From positions 96,001 through 160,000 of IMG/VR virus record IMGVR_UViG_3300037483_000793: DNA of 64,000 nt, one strand, 5' to 3'. Source of the stretch: a virus. The notes beneath the pieces are model-generated. The model did not search any database. It saw only the letters and a list, made by a program, of their open reading frames with translations, and was not told the origin of the DNA. The position numbers were made by a program, and so were the translations under genes. This document shows positions 25,137 to 55,113 of the stretch, piece by piece. Position 1 is the stretch's first letter. The number at the start of each line of letters is the position of its first letter.

Positions 25137-25439
25137 TTACGGAACGGGCAGTGCCTCGGAAGCCGAGACGGAAAGTAGACCGCTGACCGCCGCGCCGACG
25201 GCGTAGAGGCCCTGCTTCGGTGCGAGCACGAACGCGTGCTGTTCGCCGGGAAACACACGGTACGACGCGGTTGTCGGCGCAGGGAACAGATCGGTCGTCG
25301 TCAAGCTGACGAAGATCAGCACAGGGCCGACGTTGTTGACGAGAACACGCAACGGCTTGGTGCTGGCCGCTTTCGCGATCGTCGTCGGCTGCGTGCCGAC
25401 GGCTTGGACGGTGTACGTCTCGAAGTTTGTGTTCTGCAT
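25137..25439 (-). CDS. small beta-sandwich (jelly-roll-like) structural protein
   Basis: 100 aa, beta-rich; LAPKQGLYAVG matches MNPKQVLYAKG of 26547-27446. Confidence 0.65.
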   Translation of the reverse strand: MQNTNFETYTVQAVGTQPTTIAKAASTKPLRVLVNNVGPVLIFVSLTTTDLFPAPTTASYRVFPGEQHAFVLAPKQGLYAVGAAVSGLLSVSASEALPVP

Positions 25440-25456: not shown

Positions 25457-25993
25457 TTAGCGGACCTCGCTCGGGGGGCCGATGATGTCGAGGTAACCCT
25501 GGAAGTTGACCTCGATGCGCACGAACTGCACGTCGACGCGCTCGGGCTCGATGTTGGCGTCAAGGATCACGACCGCCGGGTAATCCTGCGTGTCGATCTG
25601 CACCTGGAAGCCCTCGCTGCGGACGATCGTGTAGGGCTCTTCGAGATCCCACGCGCCTGTGTTCTTCTGCAGCAGCTGGCTGACGAGCGTTGCGCTCTTG
25701 GTCAGGTTCTCGTTCTTCGCGAAATCGAGGATGCGCATACGCACCCGCTTCTCCAGCGTGGTCGGTTGCGGTTCGAGCACCGTTGGCGTTGAAAAGCCGT
25801 CGGGCGTGCCCTTGGCCGTCAGGCCGATCCGGACGCGGTGGATCTCGAACGGCTTGTCGACGTTGTGGAGAAACGACGCTTCGGGGAACACGACGCCCGA
25901 CAGGTTCGGACCGACGTCCAGCTCTGCGGCGACGTTGTACGGAATGCGAAACGTGATGTCCTTGCCCGCAAAAGCTACTGGCAGACGGCCCAT
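25457..25993 (-). CDS. putative single jelly-roll capsid protein (minor or second capsid protein)
   Basis: 178 aa, beta-rich, strong codon bias, GAGGAG RBS; ends ...VNFQGYL. Confidence 0.55.
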   Translation of the reverse strand: MGRLPVAFAGKDITFRIPYNVAAELDVGPNLSGVVFPEASFLHNVDKPFEIHRVRIGLTAKGTPDGFSTPTVLEPQPTTLEKRVRMRILDFAKNENLTKSATLVSQLLQKNTGAWDLEEPYTIVRSEGFQVQIDTQDYPAVVILDANIEPERVDVQFVRIEVNFQGYLDIIGPPSEVR

Positions 25994-34435: not shown

Positions 34436-34533
34436 CGTCGGCGCTCATCGAGACGCATCTGCCGCCGCCAGAGTACTCCAGCGGTACCGAACCCGAGCAC
34501 GAATCCGATGAAGAGGAATATACCGTCGGACAT
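34432..34533 (-). CDS. 33-aa single-TM peptide
   Basis: MSDGIFLFIGFVLGFGTAGVLWRRQMRLDERRR; TGATG overlap with the vWA gene stop. Confidence 0.55.
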   Translation of the reverse strand: MSDGIFLFIGFVLGFGTAGVLWRRQMRLDERRR

Positions 34534-36866
34534 CAGACCTTGATTTCGACCTCGCGCATCTCGCAGATGCCCGTGACGTCTTGGCCATCGAGCTTCAAGG
34601 TCAGTGTGTTCTCGTCGAGCGACTTGAACTCGGTGAACCACACCTGCCCGACGATGACACTGAACTTGATCTGTGCCGTCTGGTAGATCAGGCCGCGTGT
34701 CTTCGCGATCTGCGCCTGTGTCTGCCCGGTGAGCCACTTCTCGTGGAGGTTCTTCGGGTTCTTCTTGATGAAGTCATCGACCTCGGTGATCGCGTTCGAC
34801 ATGAACGTGTCGCACGGGTTGAGCTTCTTCTTGGCAGTGATCTTCTCGCGCACGGCCTTCACCGAGTCGAGCTTGCTGCAGCCCTTGAGCTTGATCTCCA
34901 GCTCCTTGCCCATGATGAAGTCCTTGCTGTCAGCCTGCGTAGACTTCGGCGAGAAACCGTTGTTTGTCAGGCCCTGGTCCTTCAGCCACACCGCGCCGTC
35001 GGCGGTGTAAAGGTCGATGTAGCCCTTGAGCTTGACGCCCGGGAACAGCTCGTCTTGGTACGCCTTGTAGACCTTCTGCGCGGCGCGAGCCTTGAGCAGC
35101 TCCCACTCCAGCTCGATGATCGTCTTGGCGCTGACGGCCTTGACCATCTTGCGGTTGATGATCGGCAGCGGCTTGACGTTGATGACGGTCGTACCAAAGC
35201 CTGAGATTGGCGGGTTCATTTCGACGCCCGCTTCCTTGAGCTTCTCGTACGTCGCCTCCGTGATGTTGACTGGTAGCTTCTCGACGTTCACGAGACCGTG
35301 GCTGACGATCGCGTAGTTGCGCCAGATGTGCGTCTTGAACGCGGCGGGGATCGTGTACTTCGCGTGGTCGGGCCGCGACACGAGATCGACGATGCCTGTC
35401 TTCTTGACGAGCACACTGATGTTGGGACTGCACTCGTTGTACGTCAGGTTCGCGATCGGATAACCCGTCGGCGCCTCATCAGCCACGAACTTGAGCGCGT
35501 CGCGCTTGCTGGCGAGAATCGTATCGATCTCGACCTGCAGGGCCTTGAGCTTCACGGCGTTCTTCTCACCGGACATCTTCTCGCGGATCACTTCGAGCTG
35601 TTCCTGCTCGTCGGCTGTCAGGTTCTCGTCAGCGTCGAGGCGACCGCGACCGATGCGCGAGTACTTGAACTCGGGATGGCTGAGCATCACCCGTGTGTGC
35701 TCATCGTCAGCCAAGGTGCGTAGCAGATCGAGCACCGTGAACGCGTCGTCGGGCGGGACCTTGTTGGGGTCGTAGCCATCCTGCCAGCGCGACTTCTCAC
35801 TGAATGCGGCGAGCTTCGCCGAATCCATGAACTCGGAGTACTTCTGTTTGCCGAAGCAGGCGCTGAACATGTTGATGAAGCGCACGTCGCCGGTCGCCTT
35901 GAGGATCGGGTAGACGATCTCGGGTTTCATACGGACGGCGTAGAGCGACATCGCGGCGTAGACGGCAGCAGCGGCGGGCGTTGCGTCGTCGCCGAATACA
36001 CCACGACGGCTCTGCGAGCTGACCGGCGGCGCGGCGTCACCCACCTTCGAAGGCGACAGGTACCAGATCTCGGTTGTCTGCTCGGGCACAACAACCTTGC
36101 CGGTAGACGCCTCGAACGTCGTGATCTCGAAGTCGGCAAGCGCGTACGCGAAACCGCCAATTGGATCACCGCCGACAGCGACCTCGATACGCTTGCTCGC
36201 GACTGGATGCTTCTGCAGCGCCGTCTCGAACACGGGATCGAACTTGTCGAACGCGTCGGCGTGGATGTGGACACCGCCTGCCTTCGCGGCCATGGCAGCC
36301 AGAAGCGGCCGGTCGGCGTAGTAGCCGTACTCGACGAACGTCGAGCTGCTGATGCAGGGTGTGCTGTTGGTGCCGCCTGTAACGACACCGACGACGCGAA
36401 GGATGTCTTCACGCGGCCACTGGTTGTCGCAGCCGTCACTCATGAAGAACAGCGCGAACGGATTCTTGTTCTTCTTGCTGACCTCTTGCATGGTCGCTTC
36501 GACCTGCTGCAGCGGCTCCTTGAAGCCGGTGAGGCCGACCGGGCGCAGCCAGCGATCGAGCTGCTTGTTGACGTCGCCGAGATCCTTGAGCGTCGCGATC
36601 GGTTCGCCTTCCAGCAACGCACCGTACTGGCCCTTGCCCGAGAACCAGATAATCGACAGCGTGTCGCCTTCCCGGAGTAGCTTGGGCAGCTTCTTCTTGA
36701 GCTGCTCGCGAATGCGTGGCAGGTCGTAGGCCATGCTGCCGCTGCAGTCGATGACAGCGATGTGGTTGGTCGGTGTCTCGACAGTCTTCGCGGTCGGTGC
36801 GCTGTTGTTGGTGACCTGACGAACCAGGTAGAGGCCCTTCTCGATCTCGTACGATGTCGTGCTCAT
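34533..36866 (-). CDS. large vWA-domain protein
   Basis: MIDAS AVIDCSGSM, GLTGF, FMSDGCDN; about 777 aa; strong codon bias. Confidence 0.85.
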   Translation of the reverse strand: MSTTSYEIEKGLYLVRQVTNNSAPTAKTVETPTNHIAVIDCSGSMAYDLPRIREQLKKKLPKLLREGDTLSIIWFSGKGQYGALLEGEPIATLKDLGDVNKQLDRWLRPVGLTGFKEPLQQVEATMQEVSKKNKNPFALFFMSDGCDNQWPREDILRVVGVVTGGTNSTPCISSSTFVEYGYYADRPLLAAMAAKAGGVHIHADAFDKFDPVFETALQKHPVASKRIEVAVGGDPIGGFAYALADFEITTFEASTGKVVVPEQTTEIWYLSPSKVGDAAPPVSSQSRRGVFGDDATPAAAAVYAAMSLYAVRMKPEIVYPILKATGDVRFINMFSACFGKQKYSEFMDSAKLAAFSEKSRWQDGYDPNKVPPDDAFTVLDLLRTLADDEHTRVMLSHPEFKYSRIGRGRLDADENLTADEQEQLEVIREKMSGEKNAVKLKALQVEIDTILASKRDALKFVADEAPTGYPIANLTYNECSPNISVLVKKTGIVDLVSRPDHAKYTIPAAFKTHIWRNYAIVSHGLVNVEKLPVNITEATYEKLKEAGVEMNPPISGFGTTVINVKPLPIINRKMVKAVSAKTIIELEWELLKARAAQKVYKAYQDELFPGVKLKGYIDLYTADGAVWLKDQGLTNNGFSPKSTQADSKDFIMGKELEIKLKGCSKLDSVKAVREKITAKKKLNPCDTFMSNAITEVDDFIKKNPKNLHEKWLTGQTQAQIAKTRGLIYQTAQIKFSVIVGQVWFTEFKSLDENTLTLKLDGQDVTGICEMREVEIKV

Positions 36867-37010
36867 GTGCTCCGTTCCTTCCCTATTGGGTACGGGGAAC
36901 ATCCTCTCAGAGCACTCTGACAGTCAAGTCACGAGTGACCTCACAACGAAGGAGATCGCATGCTTGGAACGTTTCTGTGCTACTCGGCATCACAAACGTA
37001 GGAGGCCCAC

Positions 37011-38210: not shown

Positions 38211-39113
38211 CTAACCGAGCAGCTTGATCGAGAGGTTCGGTGCCTGTGCATGCGTCAGCGCGCCGTCAGACGGCGTCACGGTCAGTGCCGTGGAGTTGCC
38301 CGCCGGGTTGATGACCGTGACGATGTCGCCTGCGGTCAGCGCAACGAGCACCGTGTTGGTGTTCTGCTGCGTGCCTGCGCCGCTGGTCGTACAGGTGTTG
38401 GCGACAGGCGCGGCGTTGACTGCAAGCTGCAGCTGCGACGCCTCGGAGAACCCAACCTGCCACGACACTTCGTAGACGCCCGTCGCGTCGACGACGAAGT
38501 CGGTGGTCGAGACGCCGCTGCGGATGGCGTGACCGTTCACGGTGGGCCCGTTGCGCGGGAACGGAACCGGTGCACCGACGGCGACAGTCGCCGCATAGTC
38601 GTTGCCCTCGGAGCCGGTGCCCGTCGTCGTGCCGTAGAACATCGCGCCGTTCTGCGGAGTGCCGCCACCTGGGATCGTGACATCGACCTGTCCACCGCCC
38701 GCATCCGTGGCGGTAACACCCGCGCCCGTGAAGTTGAGGATGGAATGTGGGCCGCCCGGGACAACAACGTCCTCGTCCTCGATGGACGTGATCGCACCGC
38801 TGCCACTGCCACCATCACCGCTCGCGATGATGAACGGCGTGAGGCCGATGAACGTCGGCGTGGGCGTCTTCGGGATAACGTCTTCGACCGTGTGCCAGTG
38901 CTCGACGTAGATGTCGACGAGGGCGGCGGCGGACGCCGTACGTGTCACCGTAATGTCGGTCGCGGTCGCGACGATGGTGAAGTTCGGTCCGTTTCCTGCG
39001 ACGAGGTCAGGGAGAACGGGAATGCCGTTGACGTTGAGTCGGTGCGGAAGCACGGCCGGAACGCCGATGGCCAACCCGGTGAAGGACAGAACGTTCTTGA
39101 GAATCGTGCCCAT
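38211..39113 (-). CDS. spike protein with BclA/C1q-like C-terminal domain
   Basis: GVYEVSWQV...QLQLAVN...VLVALTAGDIVTVIN...SIKLLG; start may alternatively be 39152. Confidence 0.7.
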   Translation of the reverse strand: MGTILKNVLSFTGLAIGVPAVLPHRLNVNGIPVLPDLVAGNGPNFTIVATATDITVTRTASAAALVDIYVEHWHTVEDVIPKTPTPTFIGLTPFIIASGDGGSGSGAITSIEDEDVVVPGGPHSILNFTGAGVTATDAGGGQVDVTIPGGGTPQNGAMFYGTTTGTGSEGNDYAATVAVGAPVPFPRNGPTVNGHAIRSGVSTTDFVVDATGVYEVSWQVGFSEASQLQLAVNAAPVANTCTTSGAGTQQNTNTVLVALTAGDIVTVINPAGNSTALTVTPSDGALTHAQAPNLSIKLLG

Positions 39114-39131
39114 GCCCAAAAAGATAACACC

Positions 39132-39147
39132 GATCGCTCGCGCGATC
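39132..39147. promoter_or_regulatory. GATCGC-N4-GCGATC palindrome
   Basis: GATCGCTCGCGCGATC upstream of the spike gene. Confidence 0.8.
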
Positions 39148-39177
39148 ATCAATTTGGCCGCGCCTAGAAACGTCCCC

Positions 39178-39216
39178 GAAAACAGAAACGGCCCGGTCCG
39201 AGAAGACCGAGCCGTT
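39178..39216 (-). terminator. intrinsic terminator after the capsid candidate
   Basis: Minus strand: AACGGCTCGGTC-TTCTCG-GACCGGGCCGTT hairpin then TCTGTTTT. Confidence 0.8.
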
Positions 39217-39254: not shown

Positions 39255-40004
39255 TTAGACGACGGTGCGCTTGATCAGGCCGTACTTGTACAGCTTGACG
39301 TCGGCGAAGTTGAGCGCGGTCGCGCCGTCGCTCGCCGCCTGCGCGATGCGGATCGGCGCCTCGGGCTGGAACACGCCCTTGTAGCCGAGGTTCTCACGCT
39401 CGTGCACGGGAAGCACGAGAGCGACGCGGTCACGCGGGCTCGGGACGCCGTTCTGCGCCAGCTCGAACGCGGTGTTCGTCGAGAACACGTTGTAGCCGTG
39501 TCCCTGCGGGTAGTCCTGCAGAATGCCCTGCGAGTAGAACTTCGCGTTGTACTCGTACTGGAAGAACGTCACGCGGTCCATCTGGAACAGCGTGGTCAGC
39601 GTCGGCGGATCCGACAGCGCGAACGGGGCAACGCCCGCGCCCGCACCCGGAACTGCCGCGTTGAAGTCGTCCTTCAGCGTCGGCGCGAGCGGCGAGGTGT
39701 CCGGCGCGCGCATGACGCGCGAGACCATGATGCCCCAGCCGTAGACCAGCATCTCCCAGTCCTTCGGCAGACCGGTGTCGCCGTTGCGGGGAACGTTGGT
39801 GTCGACGCGCGTCTGCACGCGCGTGCCGCCGGGGATCGGCTGCGAGCGGCCGGTCGAGAACGCTTCGAGCGGCGTGGTGATGCCGTTCGAGAACTGGACG
39901 GAGCCGTACAGCTTGTCGTCGATCCAGTCCGCGAGGGCGATCGTGCTGCCGTCGGGCAGCGTGAGGGTTGTGGTGGATGGTGCTACGCCAACTGCTCCGG
40001 CCAT
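39255..40004 (-). CDS. putative major capsid protein (jelly-roll-like)
   Basis: 249 aa, extreme GC3 bias, AAGGA RBS, own terminator; DTNxPxxGxxGLPxxWEMLVYGWGI motif; beta-rich; no TM. Confidence 0.6.
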   Translation of the reverse strand: MAGAVGVAPSTTTLTLPDGSTIALADWIDDKLYGSVQFSNGITTPLEAFSTGRSQPIPGGTRVQTRVDTNVPRNGDTGLPKDWEMLVYGWGIMVSRVMRAPDTSPLAPTLKDDFNAAVPGAGAGVAPFALSDPPTLTTLFQMDRVTFFQYEYNAKFYSQGILQDYPQGHGYNVFSTNTAFELAQNGVPSPRDRVALVLPVHERENLGYKGVFQPEAPIRIAQAASDGATALNFADVKLYKYGLIKRTVV

Positions 40005-40169
40005 GGTCTTGTCCTTGTCGCGAGAGAAACGGCTCAACGCCGTCTGTTGTGGGTGCGCCGAAGAATTCGACACGACCCTGATCGCCTGACCAGCGATCGC
40101 TGCTGCGACTCAGCCCGAAGACTCAGTCGCAAGAGCGAGCGCTGGGCGCCTTGCGCCCAACGCGCGTTA

Positions 40170-40988
40170 CTAGTTCGAGCCTCCGAACAGGGTCGCGCCG
40201 AAGTGCGTGCCCATCGCCGAGACGCTCGGACCGCCGAGCAGCTTGGTCTGAGCGGCACCCGGGTTGTCGCCCATGCCGTAGCTACCGGCACCGACGAGCG
40301 TCGGCGGGCCCACCAGCTCGGGGCGATCCGCGCCGAAGCCTGCACCGCCACCGCTGATCGAACCCGGCACCGGGTACGCGGGCTCGATTGCCGCGGCACC
40401 GAAGCCGTTGTTCATCATCGAGGGCAGGTTCGCCGGAACGACGTAGCCCGGCTCGATGGAGTGGATGCCGAACCCGCCCTGGTACGGCTGGATGACCGCC
40501 GTCGGGTCGATCGTCACGCCGCCCCAGCCCGAGCCGACGAGCTTCGCCGCGTCCGCGAACGAAGCCTTCTGGTCCGCCGAAGACGCTGCGGCCGTCACGA
40601 GCGCCTGTGCCTCGGCTGCAGTCGCCTTGGGCATGAACACCGACTGCTCCAGCTGACGGAGACCGTTGGTGACGAGCGCGGTTGCTGCTGCAGCCCAGCC
40701 CATGCGACGCGTGCCCGGGAACGCCATCATGACGCCGCCCGCGATGCCGCCCGCGAGGAGACCCGCCAGCTCGGAGTACTGATGGAACTTCGACGTCGGC
40801 TTCGACATCGCGCGCGCGATGATCGCGGCGCCGGTACCGACGCCACCGCCGATGACCGCGCCCCACATCGAGTCACCGCCAGCGGGCTGGCCGAACTCGT
40901 CGAGACCGAACATGTCGACCTCGCCCATGTTGTCGTTGTCGTACTCGCCGAAGTTGCCAGCGAGCGCGCCGTTGATTTCGTTCTTCAT
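40170..40988 (-). CDS. membrane protein with repeated GFG units, co-expressed with the capsid candidate
   Basis: Hydrophobic Gly-rich segments, then GGFGIHSIEP / NGFGAAAIEP / AGFGADRPE / YGMGD / HFGATLFGG. Confidence 0.8.
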   Translation of the reverse strand: MKNEINGALAGNFGEYDNDNMGEVDMFGLDEFGQPAGGDSMWGAVIGGGVGTGAAIIARAMSKPTSKFHQYSELAGLLAGGIAGGVMMAFPGTRRMGWAAAATALVTNGLRQLEQSVFMPKATAAEAQALVTAAASSADQKASFADAAKLVGSGWGGVTIDPTAVIQPYQGGFGIHSIEPGYVVPANLPSMMNNGFGAAAIEPAYPVPGSISGGGAGFGADRPELVGPPTLVGAGSYGMGDNPGAAQTKLLGGPSVSAMGTHFGATLFGGSN

Positions 40989-41037: not shown

Positions 41038-41226
41038 TCAGCGCGGGCAGCGGGAAGAGCCTTGCTTGAACTCCCAACCGGTCCGGCTCTTCTTGCCGGA
41101 CTTGGTACGGGAACCGCGACCGACGTAGCAGAGCTGCATCGTGCAGCCCGTACGCGGGTTCTTGACGTCTTTGCAGAAGCCGACAACCGGCGTGTCGCCG
41201 AGCTGCGCGCGCTTCCGCTTCGACAT
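41038..41226 (-). CDS. small basic Cys-containing protein (62 aa)
   Basis: MSKRKRAQLGDTPVVGFCK...RCPR, 3' end of track ORF 41038..42111. Confidence 0.6.
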   Translation of the reverse strand: MSKRKRAQLGDTPVVGFCKDVKNPRTGCTMQLCYVGRGSRTKSGKKSRTGWEFKQGSSRCPR

Positions 41227-41264: not shown

Positions 41265-42104
41265 CTACCGCTGCTCCTTGCGAACGTTGACGCTCGTGTT
41301 GCCGGGCCACACGGCTTGTGGGTGTGGCCAGCGCCCTTGGACCATCGGTGCGCGCGTCATGAGTGGCGGGCGCGCCTGCGCATGCGCGTAGTTGATCGGC
41401 ACGTTGTTCGCCGCATGCATCTGCATGACCGGATGCGGTGCGAACTTCCCAGCGAGCTTCGCTTGGAAATTGCGACGAGCCCAAACGTTGTCGTTGTAGT
41501 TGAGGTTCCGGTACGCCTGTGCGTAGTCGAAGTACGGGAACGCGGGCACGTGACCGGCGCGGTTCTGCTTGGGCAGTACCGTGGTCGCCATCATCGGCGC
41601 GCCGAACTGCGCGGGCTTCGTCTGCTGTTCGGCGCGAACCGGGATCGATGCTGCGGGTGCGCCACCTGCAGGCGCGACTTGCGGTTCGCCGCCGGGGCCG
41701 CTGTTGCAGACAATCACGCGGCGCGCGCCGATCTGGATCGTGACGGTGCCGCCGCGCGCGAGTTCCTGCGCGGCCTGTGTGATCGTGCCGACGATGCCAC
41801 CACCAGGTGGCGTGTTCGGGCCGACCGTGATCTTCGAGGTGCCCATGCACACGGTGCCGGTCTTGCCGCGCGCGAACAACTGCGCGAGCTTGCCAGCCGC
41901 GTACGCGACGTCTTCGGGCGACGGATACGGCGAGACGGCCGGTCCGGCACCACGAACGCTCGCGATGAACGGGTCGATCGTGTGCCGCGCCATGTCCACC
42001 GGGCTCACCTGGCGGATCCACATCGGCTCGATGACACCCGTGCGCGTGATTGCGTCGGGACGCCAATGCGCCTGCGCGTGCATCTCGCGGGTCATGTGGA
42101 ACAT
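41265..42104 (-). CDS. hypothetical protein, putative virion component
   Basis: ATG 6 nt after TAGCTT; Gly/Pro/Ala-rich. Confidence 0.7.
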   Translation of the reverse strand: MFHMTREMHAQAHWRPDAITRTGVIEPMWIRQVSPVDMARHTIDPFIASVRGAGPAVSPYPSPEDVAYAAGKLAQLFARGKTGTVCMGTSKITVGPNTPPGGGIVGTITQAAQELARGGTVTIQIGARRVIVCNSGPGGEPQVAPAGGAPAASIPVRAEQQTKPAQFGAPMMATTVLPKQNRAGHVPAFPYFDYAQAYRNLNYNDNVWARRNFQAKLAGKFAPHPVMQMHAANNVPINYAHAQARPPLMTRAPMVQGRWPHPQAVWPGNTSVNVRKEQR

Positions 42105-43446: not shown

Positions 43447-43659
43447 TCATCTCCTCTTGCGGCGACGGCCCCGGAACACCTGCTTGCCGTGGCGCTTGAT
43501 CTTGCCGTTCTCGCACAGTTCGACGACGCGAAGCTCCGCGCCGGGCCACGCCTTCTGAAATTTGCGTGCGGCGTATTTGGCCGTGAACACGACCGAACGC
43601 TTCGTCTTGACTACGTTCCCAACCGTTGCCGAAACCTCGTAGCCGATCTGACAGCTCAC
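43447..43659 (-). CDS. small basic protein (paralog of 42823-43029)
   Basis: MSCQIGYEV...VELCENGKIKRH...FRGRRRKRR; GTGA overlap with protease stop. Confidence 0.7.
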   Translation of the reverse strand: MSCQIGYEVSATVGNVVKTKRSVVFTAKYAARKFQKAWPGAELRVVELCENGKIKRHGKQVFRGRRRKRR

Positions 43660-44459
43660 GCGACGTAGTCCTTGAACTTGCCGTTGGGTGCCTCGCGGCC
43701 GAACATGTTGCCCGGCAGCGTCGTATCGAGCGCGACCCAGCGCGTTGGGCGCGTCTTCGGCAAACCGGCCATGCCGTAGATGTGCGCCCAGTCGCTGCTC
43801 TTGCTCGGCGCCGTGATCCGGAACTTCGCCGGGATGCCGTTGAGAGCGAGCAGCGTCGTCGTCACGACGGTGTGTCCGTCGCAGTCCTCGCCGCCGAATT
43901 CGACGGTGCGCATCGCGCTCTGGAACAGATCGACGCCTTCGACGTCGCCGCCGGGCATCTTCACCGGAGCAACGTCGCCCGTGTAGCGGATGTTCTGCTT
44001 CGTCCAGTTGTAGATCGACTCGGATTCGCACAGCCCGTCACGCGCTGGACAGTTCGCGCCCTTGACACGGAAGTGCCGTTTACCGACGGTGACATCACGA
44101 ACACCGTTGCCGGTGATCGCAAGTGCCAGCTCGCGCATCTGCGGGTTCTGGACACCCTTCCACACCAGATCCTGCAGGATGCTGACGCGCTGATCGATCG
44201 GCATCTCGGGATCGTAGTGATGGGTCAGCGTCATGCCGCCCTTCTGCACGCGTGCTTGTACGCGACCGAGCGTTGCACGCAGCACGTAGGTGCGCCGCTT
44301 TGCGGCAACACCGTAGGCGATCGCGCCACCGATCACGGCGATTCCGCCCACGATGATCGCGCCGATCGCGACTTTCTCGTGCTTGGTCGTCTTGAGACCT
44401 TCGGTTGCTGCACCGAACGCTCCGTCGGGACGTTTGCGCACAAGCGCATGACTACGCAT
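43656..44459 (-). CDS. transglutaminase-like cysteine protease with N-terminal membrane anchor
   Basis: Triad EDCDGH (Cys), WAHIY (His), ALDTT (Asp); IRYTGD; N-terminal TM. Confidence 0.85.
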   Translation of the reverse strand: MRSHALVRKRPDGAFGAATEGLKTTKHEKVAIGAIIVGGIAVIGGAIAYGVAAKRRTYVLRATLGRVQARVQKGGMTLTHHYDPEMPIDQRVSILQDLVWKGVQNPQMRELALAITGNGVRDVTVGKRHFRVKGANCPARDGLCESESIYNWTKQNIRYTGDVAPVKMPGGDVEGVDLFQSAMRTVEFGGEDCDGHTVVTTTLLALNGIPAKFRITAPSKSSDWAHIYGMAGLPKTRPTRWVALDTTLPGNMFGREAPNGKFKDYVA

Positions 44460-51688: not shown

Positions 51689-54070
51689 TTACGCCTGCGT
51701 GTCGTCGTCGCGCTCGGGATCGCCGGTATCCTTCTCGATGTCTTCGATCAGGAGGCGTACGCACTCGGCGCGGAACGCGTCCGGCGCCTTCGGCAGCATG
51801 ACGTCGATGAAGTCAGCCCACCGCGCCTGTTCGAACAGTACGAACGCGGGGATGACGAGCTGGTTCGACACGACGAAGTTGACGCCCTGCAGAATCGCAT
51901 CGACGGTCTTGTCCGGCGTGAGCTTGCCGTCGGCGATGCCGCGGCGCAGCCGATGTACGCTCTCCAGTGCCTGACCGAAGACTTCCTCTTCGCTCGGGCC
52001 CGTGCTGTTCGGCGGCGGCGCCGGGGGCGGATACGGATCGATCGCGCCAGTGCTCACCACGGGCTCGGGCGCGGGGGGCAGATCGATCGGGCCGACTTTC
52101 CGCGGTTGCGGTTGCGGCTGCGGCTGCGCGCCGTTCAGACCGCCACCTGCATCGGGCTGCTGCTGCCGCGCCTGCTGTGGCGCCTGCTGCGCAACCGGAG
52201 GCGGCGGGGACCAACCCTGAACGGGCCGACCCTGCTGCACTGCGATGTTCTGCGCGCGGATCGCGACCTCGGCCTGCATGCGCGTCTGATCACGCGCTGC
52301 TTCGGCCTGCTTCACCTTGCCTTCGCTGATCACCTGGTCGCGCTTGACGGCGAGGAACCGCTCGGCGACTTCGCTCGCGCGGCCAATGCCTTCCTGGATC
52401 AGGCGTGCCGCGGGCGGGTCACCGCCGCCACCGGACATGTTCATGATCGTCTCGGCGGCGTTCTTGTAGAGGTTGCCGATCTCGCCGACCGTGCCAACGA
52501 TACTGCGCAGCATGCCGTCGCTGCCAGACGCGTTGTCCTTCATCAGCTGCGCGACCTGAACCGGCGACACCATGAACTGCGCCATCCGATTGGCACCCTC
52601 GTTCTGCATGCGCGCGATCTCACGCTGGTTGTCAGCCTGCATCCGCGCAGACTCCTTCATCATCTCGACGACAGGATCCTGGCGGTTGGTCGCTGCTGCG
52701 GCCTGCATCTGCTCGAAGCGACGCTCGCTCGCTTCGCGAGTCTCCTTCATTTCACGCTGCAGCATCTCATCGCGGCGGATCTGCTCGTAGCGCTCACGTT
52801 CGCGCTCGCGATCGGCACGTTCGGCTTCGAGGCGGCGATCCTGTTCCTGGCGTTGGCGATCGAACTCGCGCGCCTGACGTTCCTGCTCCTCGCGAATGCG
52901 ACGGAACTCGTCGGTTTCACCCTTGGGGGTCTCGGCCATGCGCGCGAGGTCGGCGCGTAGATGTAGCATCGACTGCTCGCTCTGCTGACGGATCGCGAGC
53001 AGCTGCTGTTGCATCAGCTCGCGCTGAGTGTTCTCGTGCTGTGCACGGGCGCGCTCGCGCTCCTGTTCGCGCTCTTCGCGGAGACGCCGCACTTCGTCGT
53101 CTTCGCTCTTGTTGCGGCCCTCGCCGAGGCGACGGATCTCTTCGCGCATCGCGGCCATCGCCTGTTCGTGCGCGGTCGTCTGCCGTTCAAGCTGCTGCTT
53201 GTATTCCAGCTCCTTGCGATCGAGATCAGCCTGCTGGAGCTTGCGCTCCAACTCCTTCTTCTCGTTGTCGTCCTGATCGAAGGGCGAGCGGCCGCGACGC
53301 GAGCGATCCTCGTCGTCGTAGCTGAAACGCGTGCGGCCGTTGTACGGTGGCGGCGGCTGCGTACCCCACGGACCTTGCTGTGGCCCCCACTGGCCGTTCC
53401 AGCCCTGCTGCGGGTACGGCTGCTGCGGGTACGGCTGCTGCCAGCCCCACGGGCCGGGCTGTGGCGCGCCGACGTTGCCGGGCCACTGCTGCGGCGTCGG
53501 GTTCCACATCGGCGGCGCCTGATTCATCTGCGGCTGCGGAGCGGCCTGCTGTTGCGGCTGCGGCAAGCTACCCATGATGGGACCGGTGTGCGGCGGGTTG
53601 TTGTAGCCGAGCTGCGAGCCCGACGGCGGCCAGCCGGACGCCTGCTGCATGCCGAACGGCTGCACGTTGGCGGGCACAGCTTGTGGGCCCGAGATGGGCG
53701 CGACGTTCGTGGCAGCGTTGACGAGCGCAGCTTCCTGCGTGTTCGGTGGGACCTTCTCGGGATACAGGCGCGGATCCCACACACCCTGCCACGTCATGCG
53801 CTCGCCTTTGGCGTCGGTGACGGTGAACTCGTAGTAGCCGCCACCAGCCCACTTCGTGAGGATGAAGTTTTCCAGTCCGAGCACTTCATCGCGCGTCCAG
53901 TTCACGCCGGGCGGCGAGAAACCCTGCTGCTCACTGCCCTTGGCGGGAAGTTCGATTGGTTGGCGCACATTACCGCGCATTTTTTCGACGCGTACGGTCA
54001 GTGGTTCGTGCATCGCTTGCAGCTTCACCTGATCGAAGCGCTGCTCCTTCTCGGACTTGGGCGCGGCCAT
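51689..54070 (-). CDS. large protein with Gln/Pro/Trp low-complexity region and long coiled coil
   Basis: 793 aa; QQPYP/PWG repeats; E/R/Q heptads; GAGGAG RBS. Confidence 0.85.
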   Translation of the reverse strand: MAAPKSEKEQRFDQVKLQAMHEPLTVRVEKMRGNVRQPIELPAKGSEQQGFSPPGVNWTRDEVLGLENFILTKWAGGGYYEFTVTDAKGERMTWQGVWDPRLYPEKVPPNTQEAALVNAATNVAPISGPQAVPANVQPFGMQQASGWPPSGSQLGYNNPPHTGPIMGSLPQPQQQAAPQPQMNQAPPMWNPTPQQWPGNVGAPQPGPWGWQQPYPQQPYPQQGWNGQWGPQQGPWGTQPPPPYNGRTRFSYDDEDRSRRGRSPFDQDDNEKKELERKLQQADLDRKELEYKQQLERQTTAHEQAMAAMREEIRRLGEGRNKSEDDEVRRLREEREQERERARAQHENTQRELMQQQLLAIRQQSEQSMLHLRADLARMAETPKGETDEFRRIREEQERQAREFDRQRQEQDRRLEAERADRERERERYEQIRRDEMLQREMKETREASERRFEQMQAAAATNRQDPVVEMMKESARMQADNQREIARMQNEGANRMAQFMVSPVQVAQLMKDNASGSDGMLRSIVGTVGEIGNLYKNAAETIMNMSGGGGDPPAARLIQEGIGRASEVAERFLAVKRDQVISEGKVKQAEAARDQTRMQAEVAIRAQNIAVQQGRPVQGWSPPPPVAQQAPQQARQQQPDAGGGLNGAQPQPQPQPRKVGPIDLPPAPEPVVSTGAIDPYPPPAPPPNSTGPSEEEVFGQALESVHRLRRGIADGKLTPDKTVDAILQGVNFVVSNQLVIPAFVLFEQARWADFIDVMLPKAPDAFRAECVRLLIEDIEKDTGDPERDDDTQA

Positions 54071-54274: not shown

Positions 54275-54736
54275 GTGTACGACAACGAGATGACGCAAAA
54301 CATCAGTGCGCCCGAGCGTACGTTCACGCGCGCGCGCCGCTGCGCGAACTGCACCGCGTTTGAAACCGGTCCGATGTCCCACCAGCAGTGGGCCATCCAC
54401 CGCAAGGCGCGTCAGGATGACTACCTCCGCACGATTCCTGTGTCGCGTCTCGCGGACATGGAAAAGCCGGGTTGGTCACCCGCCGAGAAGAACGACGCGC
54501 GTCTGCAGCAACTGATGCAGATGGATCAGATGATCGCCCACGGTCAAGCGGGCTTGTGCATGAAAGGCGCACGTTCCGCGGCCGACGGCGGACCGTCCGG
54601 GGACTTCGTGCACGCGGAGTTCCTGTGCGATCGCTGGAACGGCAAAGAGGGTGTCGGTGAGATGACACGCGGTCACGAGGACAAACTCGGCGATGAGTTG
54701 CGCGAGATCGCTGACGGTCGCGCGAAGAAGTCGTAG
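54275..54736 (+). CDS. four-Cys protein (HiPIP-like spacing)
   Basis: CANCTAF...GLC...FLCDRW. Confidence 0.65.
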   Translation: MYDNEMTQNISAPERTFTRARRCANCTAFETGPMSHQQWAIHRKARQDDYLRTIPVSRLADMEKPGWSPAEKNDARLQQLMQMDQMIAHGQAGLCMKGARSAADGGPSGDFVHAEFLCDRWNGKEGVGEMTRGHEDKLGDELREIADGRAKKS

Positions 54737-54744
54737 GTTCGCGC

Positions 54745-55113
54745 GTGAGCACGCTCATCCTCTACATGCTCCTGACGACAGCCCAGTTCTACCTGCTGTC
54801 GCGGGCCATGATCACGAAATCGTTGTGGTCACGCTACCCGGCGTGGCTCGACTACTACACCTCGTGCGCGGCCTGCTCGGGCTTCCTCTACGGCGGTGCA
54901 GTCGCACTTGCGATCGGATGGACCCAAGACCTACCGTTTTTGGGGCTATCCGGTCGTTTTTGGGTCACACCCATCATTGTCGGGCTGGGATCTATGGTGT
55001 GGACGCCAATTATGGGTGATTTCCACGTACGTGCCCTGTTACAGCTCGGTGTAGCCGGTCCGCGCAGTGATTCATCGACCGATCAACCCGATCCACCCCC
55101 AGAGAGTGTGTGA
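54745..55113 (+). CDS. membrane protein with CxxC (DUF1360-like)
   Basis: Three hydrophobic segments; TSCAACSGF at the start of a TM helix. Confidence 0.6.
   Translation: MSTLILYMLLTTAQFYLLSRAMITKSLWSRYPAWLDYYTSCAACSGFLYGGAVALAIGWTQDLPFLGLSGRFWVTPIIVGLGSMVWTPIMGDFHVRALLQLGVAGPRSDSSTDQPDPPPESV

What the first reader, a model, noticed from the sequence alone, without database searches (positions are those of the whole stretch)
39255..40004. Major capsid protein candidate of an unrecognised jelly-roll type
Seen: strongest codon bias in the window, strong RBS, dedicated terminator, palindrome variants upstream (40095), no TM, beta-strand periodicity, DTN...G.LP..W...V.G motif. At 249 aa it is short for a double jelly roll and unlike HK97. 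Inference: single jelly-roll capsid protein, possibly pairing with the 178-aa protein (25457) as in two-MCP sphaerolipoviruses.
Basis: inference. Interest (0 to 1): 0.8.

Follow-up and report, generated by a model that had tools for sequence, protein, structure and literature searches.

The report
Jelly-roll capsid protein, large tailless phage
This gene most likely encodes the main shell protein of an uncultured group of large (78-230 kb) bacterial viruses that have no detectable tailed-phage head, portal or DNA-packaging genes and appear to build their particle like a 20-kb archaeal virus (SPV1) with a genome four to ten times smaller.

The parts
39255..40004 (-). 249-aa single jelly-roll protein, probable major capsid (hexon) protein
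40012..40016 (-). Shine-Dalgarno element AAGGA, 7 nt before the ATG
   Evidence: sequence; conserved in relatives
39187..39216 (-). intrinsic terminator, 13-bp stem plus U-rich tail
40095..40110 (.). two-mismatch copy of the genome-wide GATCGC-N4-GCGATC palindrome (perfect copy at 39132-39147); specific to the 196-221 kb members
40170..40988 (-). 272-aa Gly-rich protein with a moderately hydrophobic segment; core gene directly upstream of the capsid gene, third-highest codon bias; candidate major membrane or sub-capsomer protein (inferred)
41038..41226 (-). 62-aa basic protein (net +13), matched in 11 related loci; candidate DNA-condensing protein (inferred)
41265..42104 (-). 279-aa basic protein of the same gene run, matched in 6 related loci
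43656..44441 (-). membrane-anchored transglutaminase-like protein with invariant Cys187, His220, Asp239; candidate maturation protease or cross-linker
25457..25993 (-). 178-aa second single jelly-roll protein; penton (preferred) or second capsid protein
25137..25439 (-). 100-aa protein that lies just after the 178-aa gene in most relatives; candidate vertex component (inferred)
38211..39149 (-). fibre/spike protein with BclA_C/C1q head; N-terminal domain shared with three paralogues in the genome
21208..21540 (+). thioredoxin-like CxxC protein that travels with the module
51689..54070 (-). 793-aa protein of unknown function, core in all eight complete or near-complete genomes; no Walker A motif

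Best explanation
The protein is the major capsid protein of a large, tailless, probably membrane-containing bacterial dsDNA virus. Shown: the gene, its strong expression signals, its conservation, a predicted single jelly roll with about 100 residues of insertions, and the lack of detectable terminase, portal, HK97 capsid and core packaging ATPase genes in complete genomes. Inferred, by analogy with SPV1: six copies stand upright and form the hexameric capsomers of an icosahedral shell; the 178-aa jelly roll forms the pentons that carry fibres; the shell sits on a lipid vesicle lined by the many membrane proteins; the DNA is condensed by small basic proteins and enclosed during assembly rather than pumped in. 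Odds: jelly-roll fold 0.95; major capsid protein 0.8; SPV1-like split into one hexon and one penton protein about 0.55; motor-free packaging about 0.5. Scaling SPV1 (87 nm, 20 kb) by volume would give roughly 180 nm for 196 kb (my estimate).
Confidence: 0.78

Rival explanations
1. Two-major-capsid-protein build: the 249-aa and 178-aa jelly rolls form heterodimers and pseudo-hexamers as in SH1, HCIV-1 and P23-77. Same role for the 249-aa protein, different architecture.
Against: Profile-profile probability 3%. Codon-bias rank 7-57 against 1-8 in the same seven genomes. Pentameric nucleoplasmins and a probable HHIV-2 penton chain score equally well. The genes are 13.8 kb apart here. Where several capsid genes occur, they are tandem paralogues of the 249-aa protein itself.
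Confidence: 0.25
2. An abundant structural protein that is not the shell: a cement or decoration protein of a tailed phage whose head genes are too divergent to detect, or the subunit of a fibre or appendage.
Against: The 574-aa protein is DUF87/HerA by Pfam, sits among replication genes and is missing from all six relatives with terminal repeats. In the complete 78-86 kb genomes the large Walker A proteins are the primase-helicase, other helicases and AAA proteins. A decoration protein is not expected to be the most conserved gene of a lineage (inference).
Confidence: 0.12
3. A non-virion protein (for example a nucleoplasmin-like chaperone or the wall of an intracellular compartment) of a large plasmid-like element.
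For: Jelly rolls are common in cellular proteins; every complete genome has a tyrosine recombinase.
Against: The gene sits with fibre, membrane, basic and lysis genes; its top fold matches are capsid proteins; no other capsid candidate was found.
Confidence: 0.05

Closest known systems
Sulfolobus polyhedral virus 1, VP4 (Portogloboviridae; PDB 6OJ0; PMC8459092)
   Different: Bacterial rather than Saccharolobus host; 78-221 kb rather than about 20 kb; encodes DNA polymerase, primase-helicase, ribonucleotide reductase and lysis enzymes; capsid protein 249 aa against about 180 aa, 9-10% identity.
Singelaviria / Helvetiavirae / Halopanivirales (SH1, HCIV-1, HHIV-2, P23-77; PMC6414509, PMC8812541, PMC12714852)
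   Different: No evidence of a heterodimer of two major capsid proteins; no core FtsK-HerA ATPase; genomes 3-12 times larger than 17-30 kb; no sequence similarity to P23-77 VP16 or VP17.
[quoted passage not shown]
   Same: Bacterial, tailless, membrane-containing, circular genome (PMC6356626).
   Different: Encodes a Walker A protein (gp40) with no counterpart here; no profile match to its structural proteins.
Double jelly-roll viruses (PRD1, PM2, STIV, FLiP)
   Different: One barrel, not two.

Membership tests
Single jelly-roll capsid proteins (fold class) | one eight-stranded jelly-roll barrel | tested here: met
   model with eight core strands; aligns over residues 14-249 to single jelly rolls
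Single jelly-roll capsid proteins (fold class) | most abundant protein of the particle; barrels vertical to the surface | not testable with these tools
   only proxies: codon bias and conservation; complex prediction unavailable
Portogloboviridae | single-jelly-roll hexon (VP4) and penton (VP10) | tested here: inconclusive
   two jelly rolls predicted, VP4 is the best match at moderate Z; oligomeric states untested
Portogloboviridae | no packaging ATPase | tested here: met
   no core ATPase of A32, FtsK or HerA type; HerA in 4 of 16 records only
Portogloboviridae | about 20-kb genome without DNA polymerase | tested here: not met
   196 kb with family A DNA polymerase and ribonucleotide reductase
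Portogloboviridae | hyperthermophilic archaeal host | tested here: not met
   peptidoglycan-binding, M23 and bacterial release-factor domains
Portogloboviridae | inner membrane and nucleoprotein coil | not testable with these tools
   membrane-like and basic proteins present
Halopanivirales (Singelaviria) | two single-jelly-roll major capsid proteins forming heterodimers | tested here: inconclusive
   second jelly roll in 15/15 relatives, no homology, binding not testable
Halopanivirales (Singelaviria) | FtsK-HerA packaging ATPase in the morphogenetic module | tested here: not met
   DUF87 and FtsK absent from six complete relatives; P23-77 ATPase finds only the non-core HerA, E 0.011
Double jelly-roll viruses (Varidnaviria) | two fused jelly-roll barrels in the major capsid protein | tested here: not met
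   one barrel; aligns to a single domain of PRD1 P3, PBCV-1 and faustovirus capsid proteins
Caudoviricetes | terminase large subunit, portal and HK97-fold capsid protein | tested here: not met
   six profiles negative in 16 records with positive controls; limited to profile sensitivity; phrog_2 and phrog_10 taken as terminase and head protein from my own knowledge

The most novel reading that the evidence does not exclude
A widespread, undescribed high-rank lineage of bacterial viruses with self-replicating genomes up to at least 230 kb builds very large icosahedral, membrane-lined shells from one vertical single-jelly-roll protein and encloses its DNA with no ATP-driven motor. These would be the largest known tailless viruses of bacteria, a bacterial giant counterpart of SPV1, currently filed as tailed phages in databases.
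Probability: 0.45. Interest if true: 0.9.

Novelty: new variant of a known kind. Interest (0 to 1): 0.74.

Why it matters
Viruses with vertical single-jelly-roll capsids are known only as a small group with 17-30 kb genomes from hot or salty sites (PMC10848233, PMC8812541), and large phages are assumed to be tailed. A conserved family with 438 close homologues and 115 clusters at 50% identity, on genomes of 78-230 kb, would enlarge that group greatly, give a marker gene to pull these genomes out of the tailed-phage bins, and make two questions testable: how large a shell one jelly roll can build, and whether 200 kb of DNA can be packaged without a motor. Tandem triplications of the gene in some relatives also bear on the proposed route from one capsid protein (SPV1) to two (Halopanivirales).

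Tried and rejected
Pfam, PHROG and PDB sequence searches: nothing for the protein, its alignment or ten distant homologues. tblastn against 50,697 cultured phages: no match. BFVD Foldseek: only weak rows. No HK97-fold chain appears in the fold lists, which does not by itself exclude one. Profile comparison with SSIP-1 and P23-77 proteins: negative; the SPV1 genome was not held. Provirus in a Gemmatimonadota chromosome (CP070815.1): considered after and rejected as host evidence, because the virus stretch 3,658,441-3,719,593 is bounded by 100-N gaps and another core gene lies 1.4 Mb away; it is a binned contig. The other MAG hits span unrelated phyla and were not used. The phrog_2666 'terminase' label was rejected (see rivals). 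The antisense 555-aa ORF was rejected as a shadow. The palindrome was rejected as a capsid-module feature. Nine completed literature searches found no description of this lineage; most subscription papers are not in the library.

Full report
Observation. The window is bases 96,001-160,000 of a 195,792-bp virus record. Its ends share a 177-bp repeat with 174 identical bases, so the genome is probably complete although labelled linear. The finding is a minus-strand ORF, 40004-39255, 249 aa. It ranks first in codon bias in the window and in the whole genome by three measures, has an AAGGA ribosome-binding element that is conserved in relatives but not unusual in strength, is followed by a 13-bp-stem terminator and has no membrane helix. 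The palindrome variant at 40095 exists, but the motif is confined to the 196-221 kb members. The long plus-strand ORF across the gene is an antisense shadow.

Family. No Pfam, PHROG or PDB sequence match and no match in cultured phages. There are 438 homologues in metagenomes, the best 120 at 62-90% identity, and 115 clusters at 50% identity. Fifteen IMG/VR records carry the gene; six have terminal repeats (77.5, 81.5, 85.2, 85.3, 85.7 and 137.9 kb) and one is 221 kb; another contig reaches 232 kb. Across the six complete smaller genomes it is the most conserved gene by a wide margin and is single-copy, with codon-bias rank 1-12 in all eight genomes.

Genome context. Relatives keep a module: transglutaminase-like protein with a Cys-His-Asp triad, a small basic protein, a Gly-rich 272-aa protein, the capsid candidate, then within 0.8-2.6 kb the 178-aa protein, a 100-aa protein, a thioredoxin-like protein and fibre genes. 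In this larger genome the module is spread over about 45 kb. Six tailed-phage hallmark profiles are negative in all 16 records while control genomes ring. A32 is negative in this genome and FtsK has no match over its cut-off. A 574-aa HerA/DUF87 ATPase lies among the replication genes; PHROG labels its family 'terminase', but Pfam calls it HerA and it is missing from all six relatives with terminal repeats. It may still act in packaging in the largest members; it cannot be the lineage's motor. Walker A scans of the complete genomes show helicases, primase-helicase, AAA proteins and kinases only. Peptidoglycan-binding, M23 and release-factor domains indicate a bacterial host. The apparent provirus in a Gemmatimonadota chromosome is a binned contig between N gaps, so the host stays unknown.

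The 178-aa protein. It folds as a second jelly roll (pLDDT 90.5) whose best matches are tied between pentameric nucleoplasmins, HCIV-1, HHIV-2, SPV1 and cellular proteins. It is in 15/15 relatives, shows no significant profile similarity to the 249-aa protein and has weaker codon bias in each genome ranked. I prefer penton (about 0.55) to stoichiometric partner (about 0.25). Where a lineage has several capsid genes they are tandem copies of the 249-aa protein: a recent triplication in one contig and three divergent copies in another element.

Mechanism. Most likely the protein forms upright hexameric capsomers on a membrane vesicle around protein-condensed DNA, with pentons of the 178-aa protein carrying fibres and the transglutaminase-like enzyme maturing or cross-linking the particle. 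The fold and gene content are shown; the particle is inferred from SPV1 (PMC8459092), which also lacks a packaging ATPase (PMC8812541).

Comparison and novelty. It works like Portogloboviridae but fails that family's genome and host features; it lacks the core ATPase of Halopanivirales and a heterodimer is not shown; it is neither a double-jelly-roll virus nor, at profile sensitivity, a tailed phage. No similarity to SSIP-1 or P23-77 proteins was found. I found no paper on this lineage. Earlier reports of this scan reached the same reading on other genomes; these are not independent evidence, and I looked at those after my own fold and genome tests, although a same-genome first-reader note on the tailless reading was seen earlier. 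Verdict: new variant of a known kind, interest 0.74.

Noticed in passing
L075:6763-7084 (G002:86763-87084): The 221-kb relative's copy of the 178-aa jelly-roll gene is interrupted by a group I intron (Rfam RF00028, 71.8 bits); the only in-frame junction I could see has C, not U, at the 5' splice site.
   Followed up: partly
L024:10001-12343; L069:7196-9345 (G001:1187196-1189345): Three tandem paralogues of the capsid candidate: a recent triplication in L024, and three divergent copies on a 13-kb binned contig.
   Followed up: partly
window 3310-57784 and genome-wide: GATCGC-N4-GCGATC occurs 21 times perfectly in the window, 44 times in the genome and 36 times in G002, but 0-1 times in the 78-138 kb relatives; the genome also encodes a D12-class adenine methyltransferase.
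   Followed up: partly
window 51689-54070, 54275-54736, 54745-55113; L022:8300-8827: A block of unknown genes (793, 153, 122 and 175 aa) is core in seven or eight of eight complete genomes and clusters together in the smaller ones; the 793-aa protein has no family or fold match. Candidate for a packaging, scaffold or transcription function.
   Followed up: partly
L017:11730-13454: 574-aa HerA/DUF87 ATPase between ribonucleotide reductase and DNA polymerase, labelled terminase by phrog_2666; in 4 of 16 records.
   Followed up: yes
G001 (CP070815.1) 3,658,441-3,719,593 and 2.26 Mb: A MAG deposited as a Gemmatimonadota chromosome is a chain of contigs joined by 100-N gaps and holds pieces of a related virus and of other phages.
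   Followed up: yes
window 38211-39149; L019:18087-19346; L020:261-881; L022:12058-12756: Four fibre-like genes share an N-terminal domain of about 100 aa that is present in seven of eight complete genomes, a likely attachment module.
   Followed up: no
window 34533-36902: Large vWA-like protein (phrog_2426) near the capsid gene in several of the largest relatives.
   Followed up: no
L097, L099: Two distant homologues come from an assembly whose record names contain '01um', suggesting a 0.1-um filter fraction.
   Followed up: no
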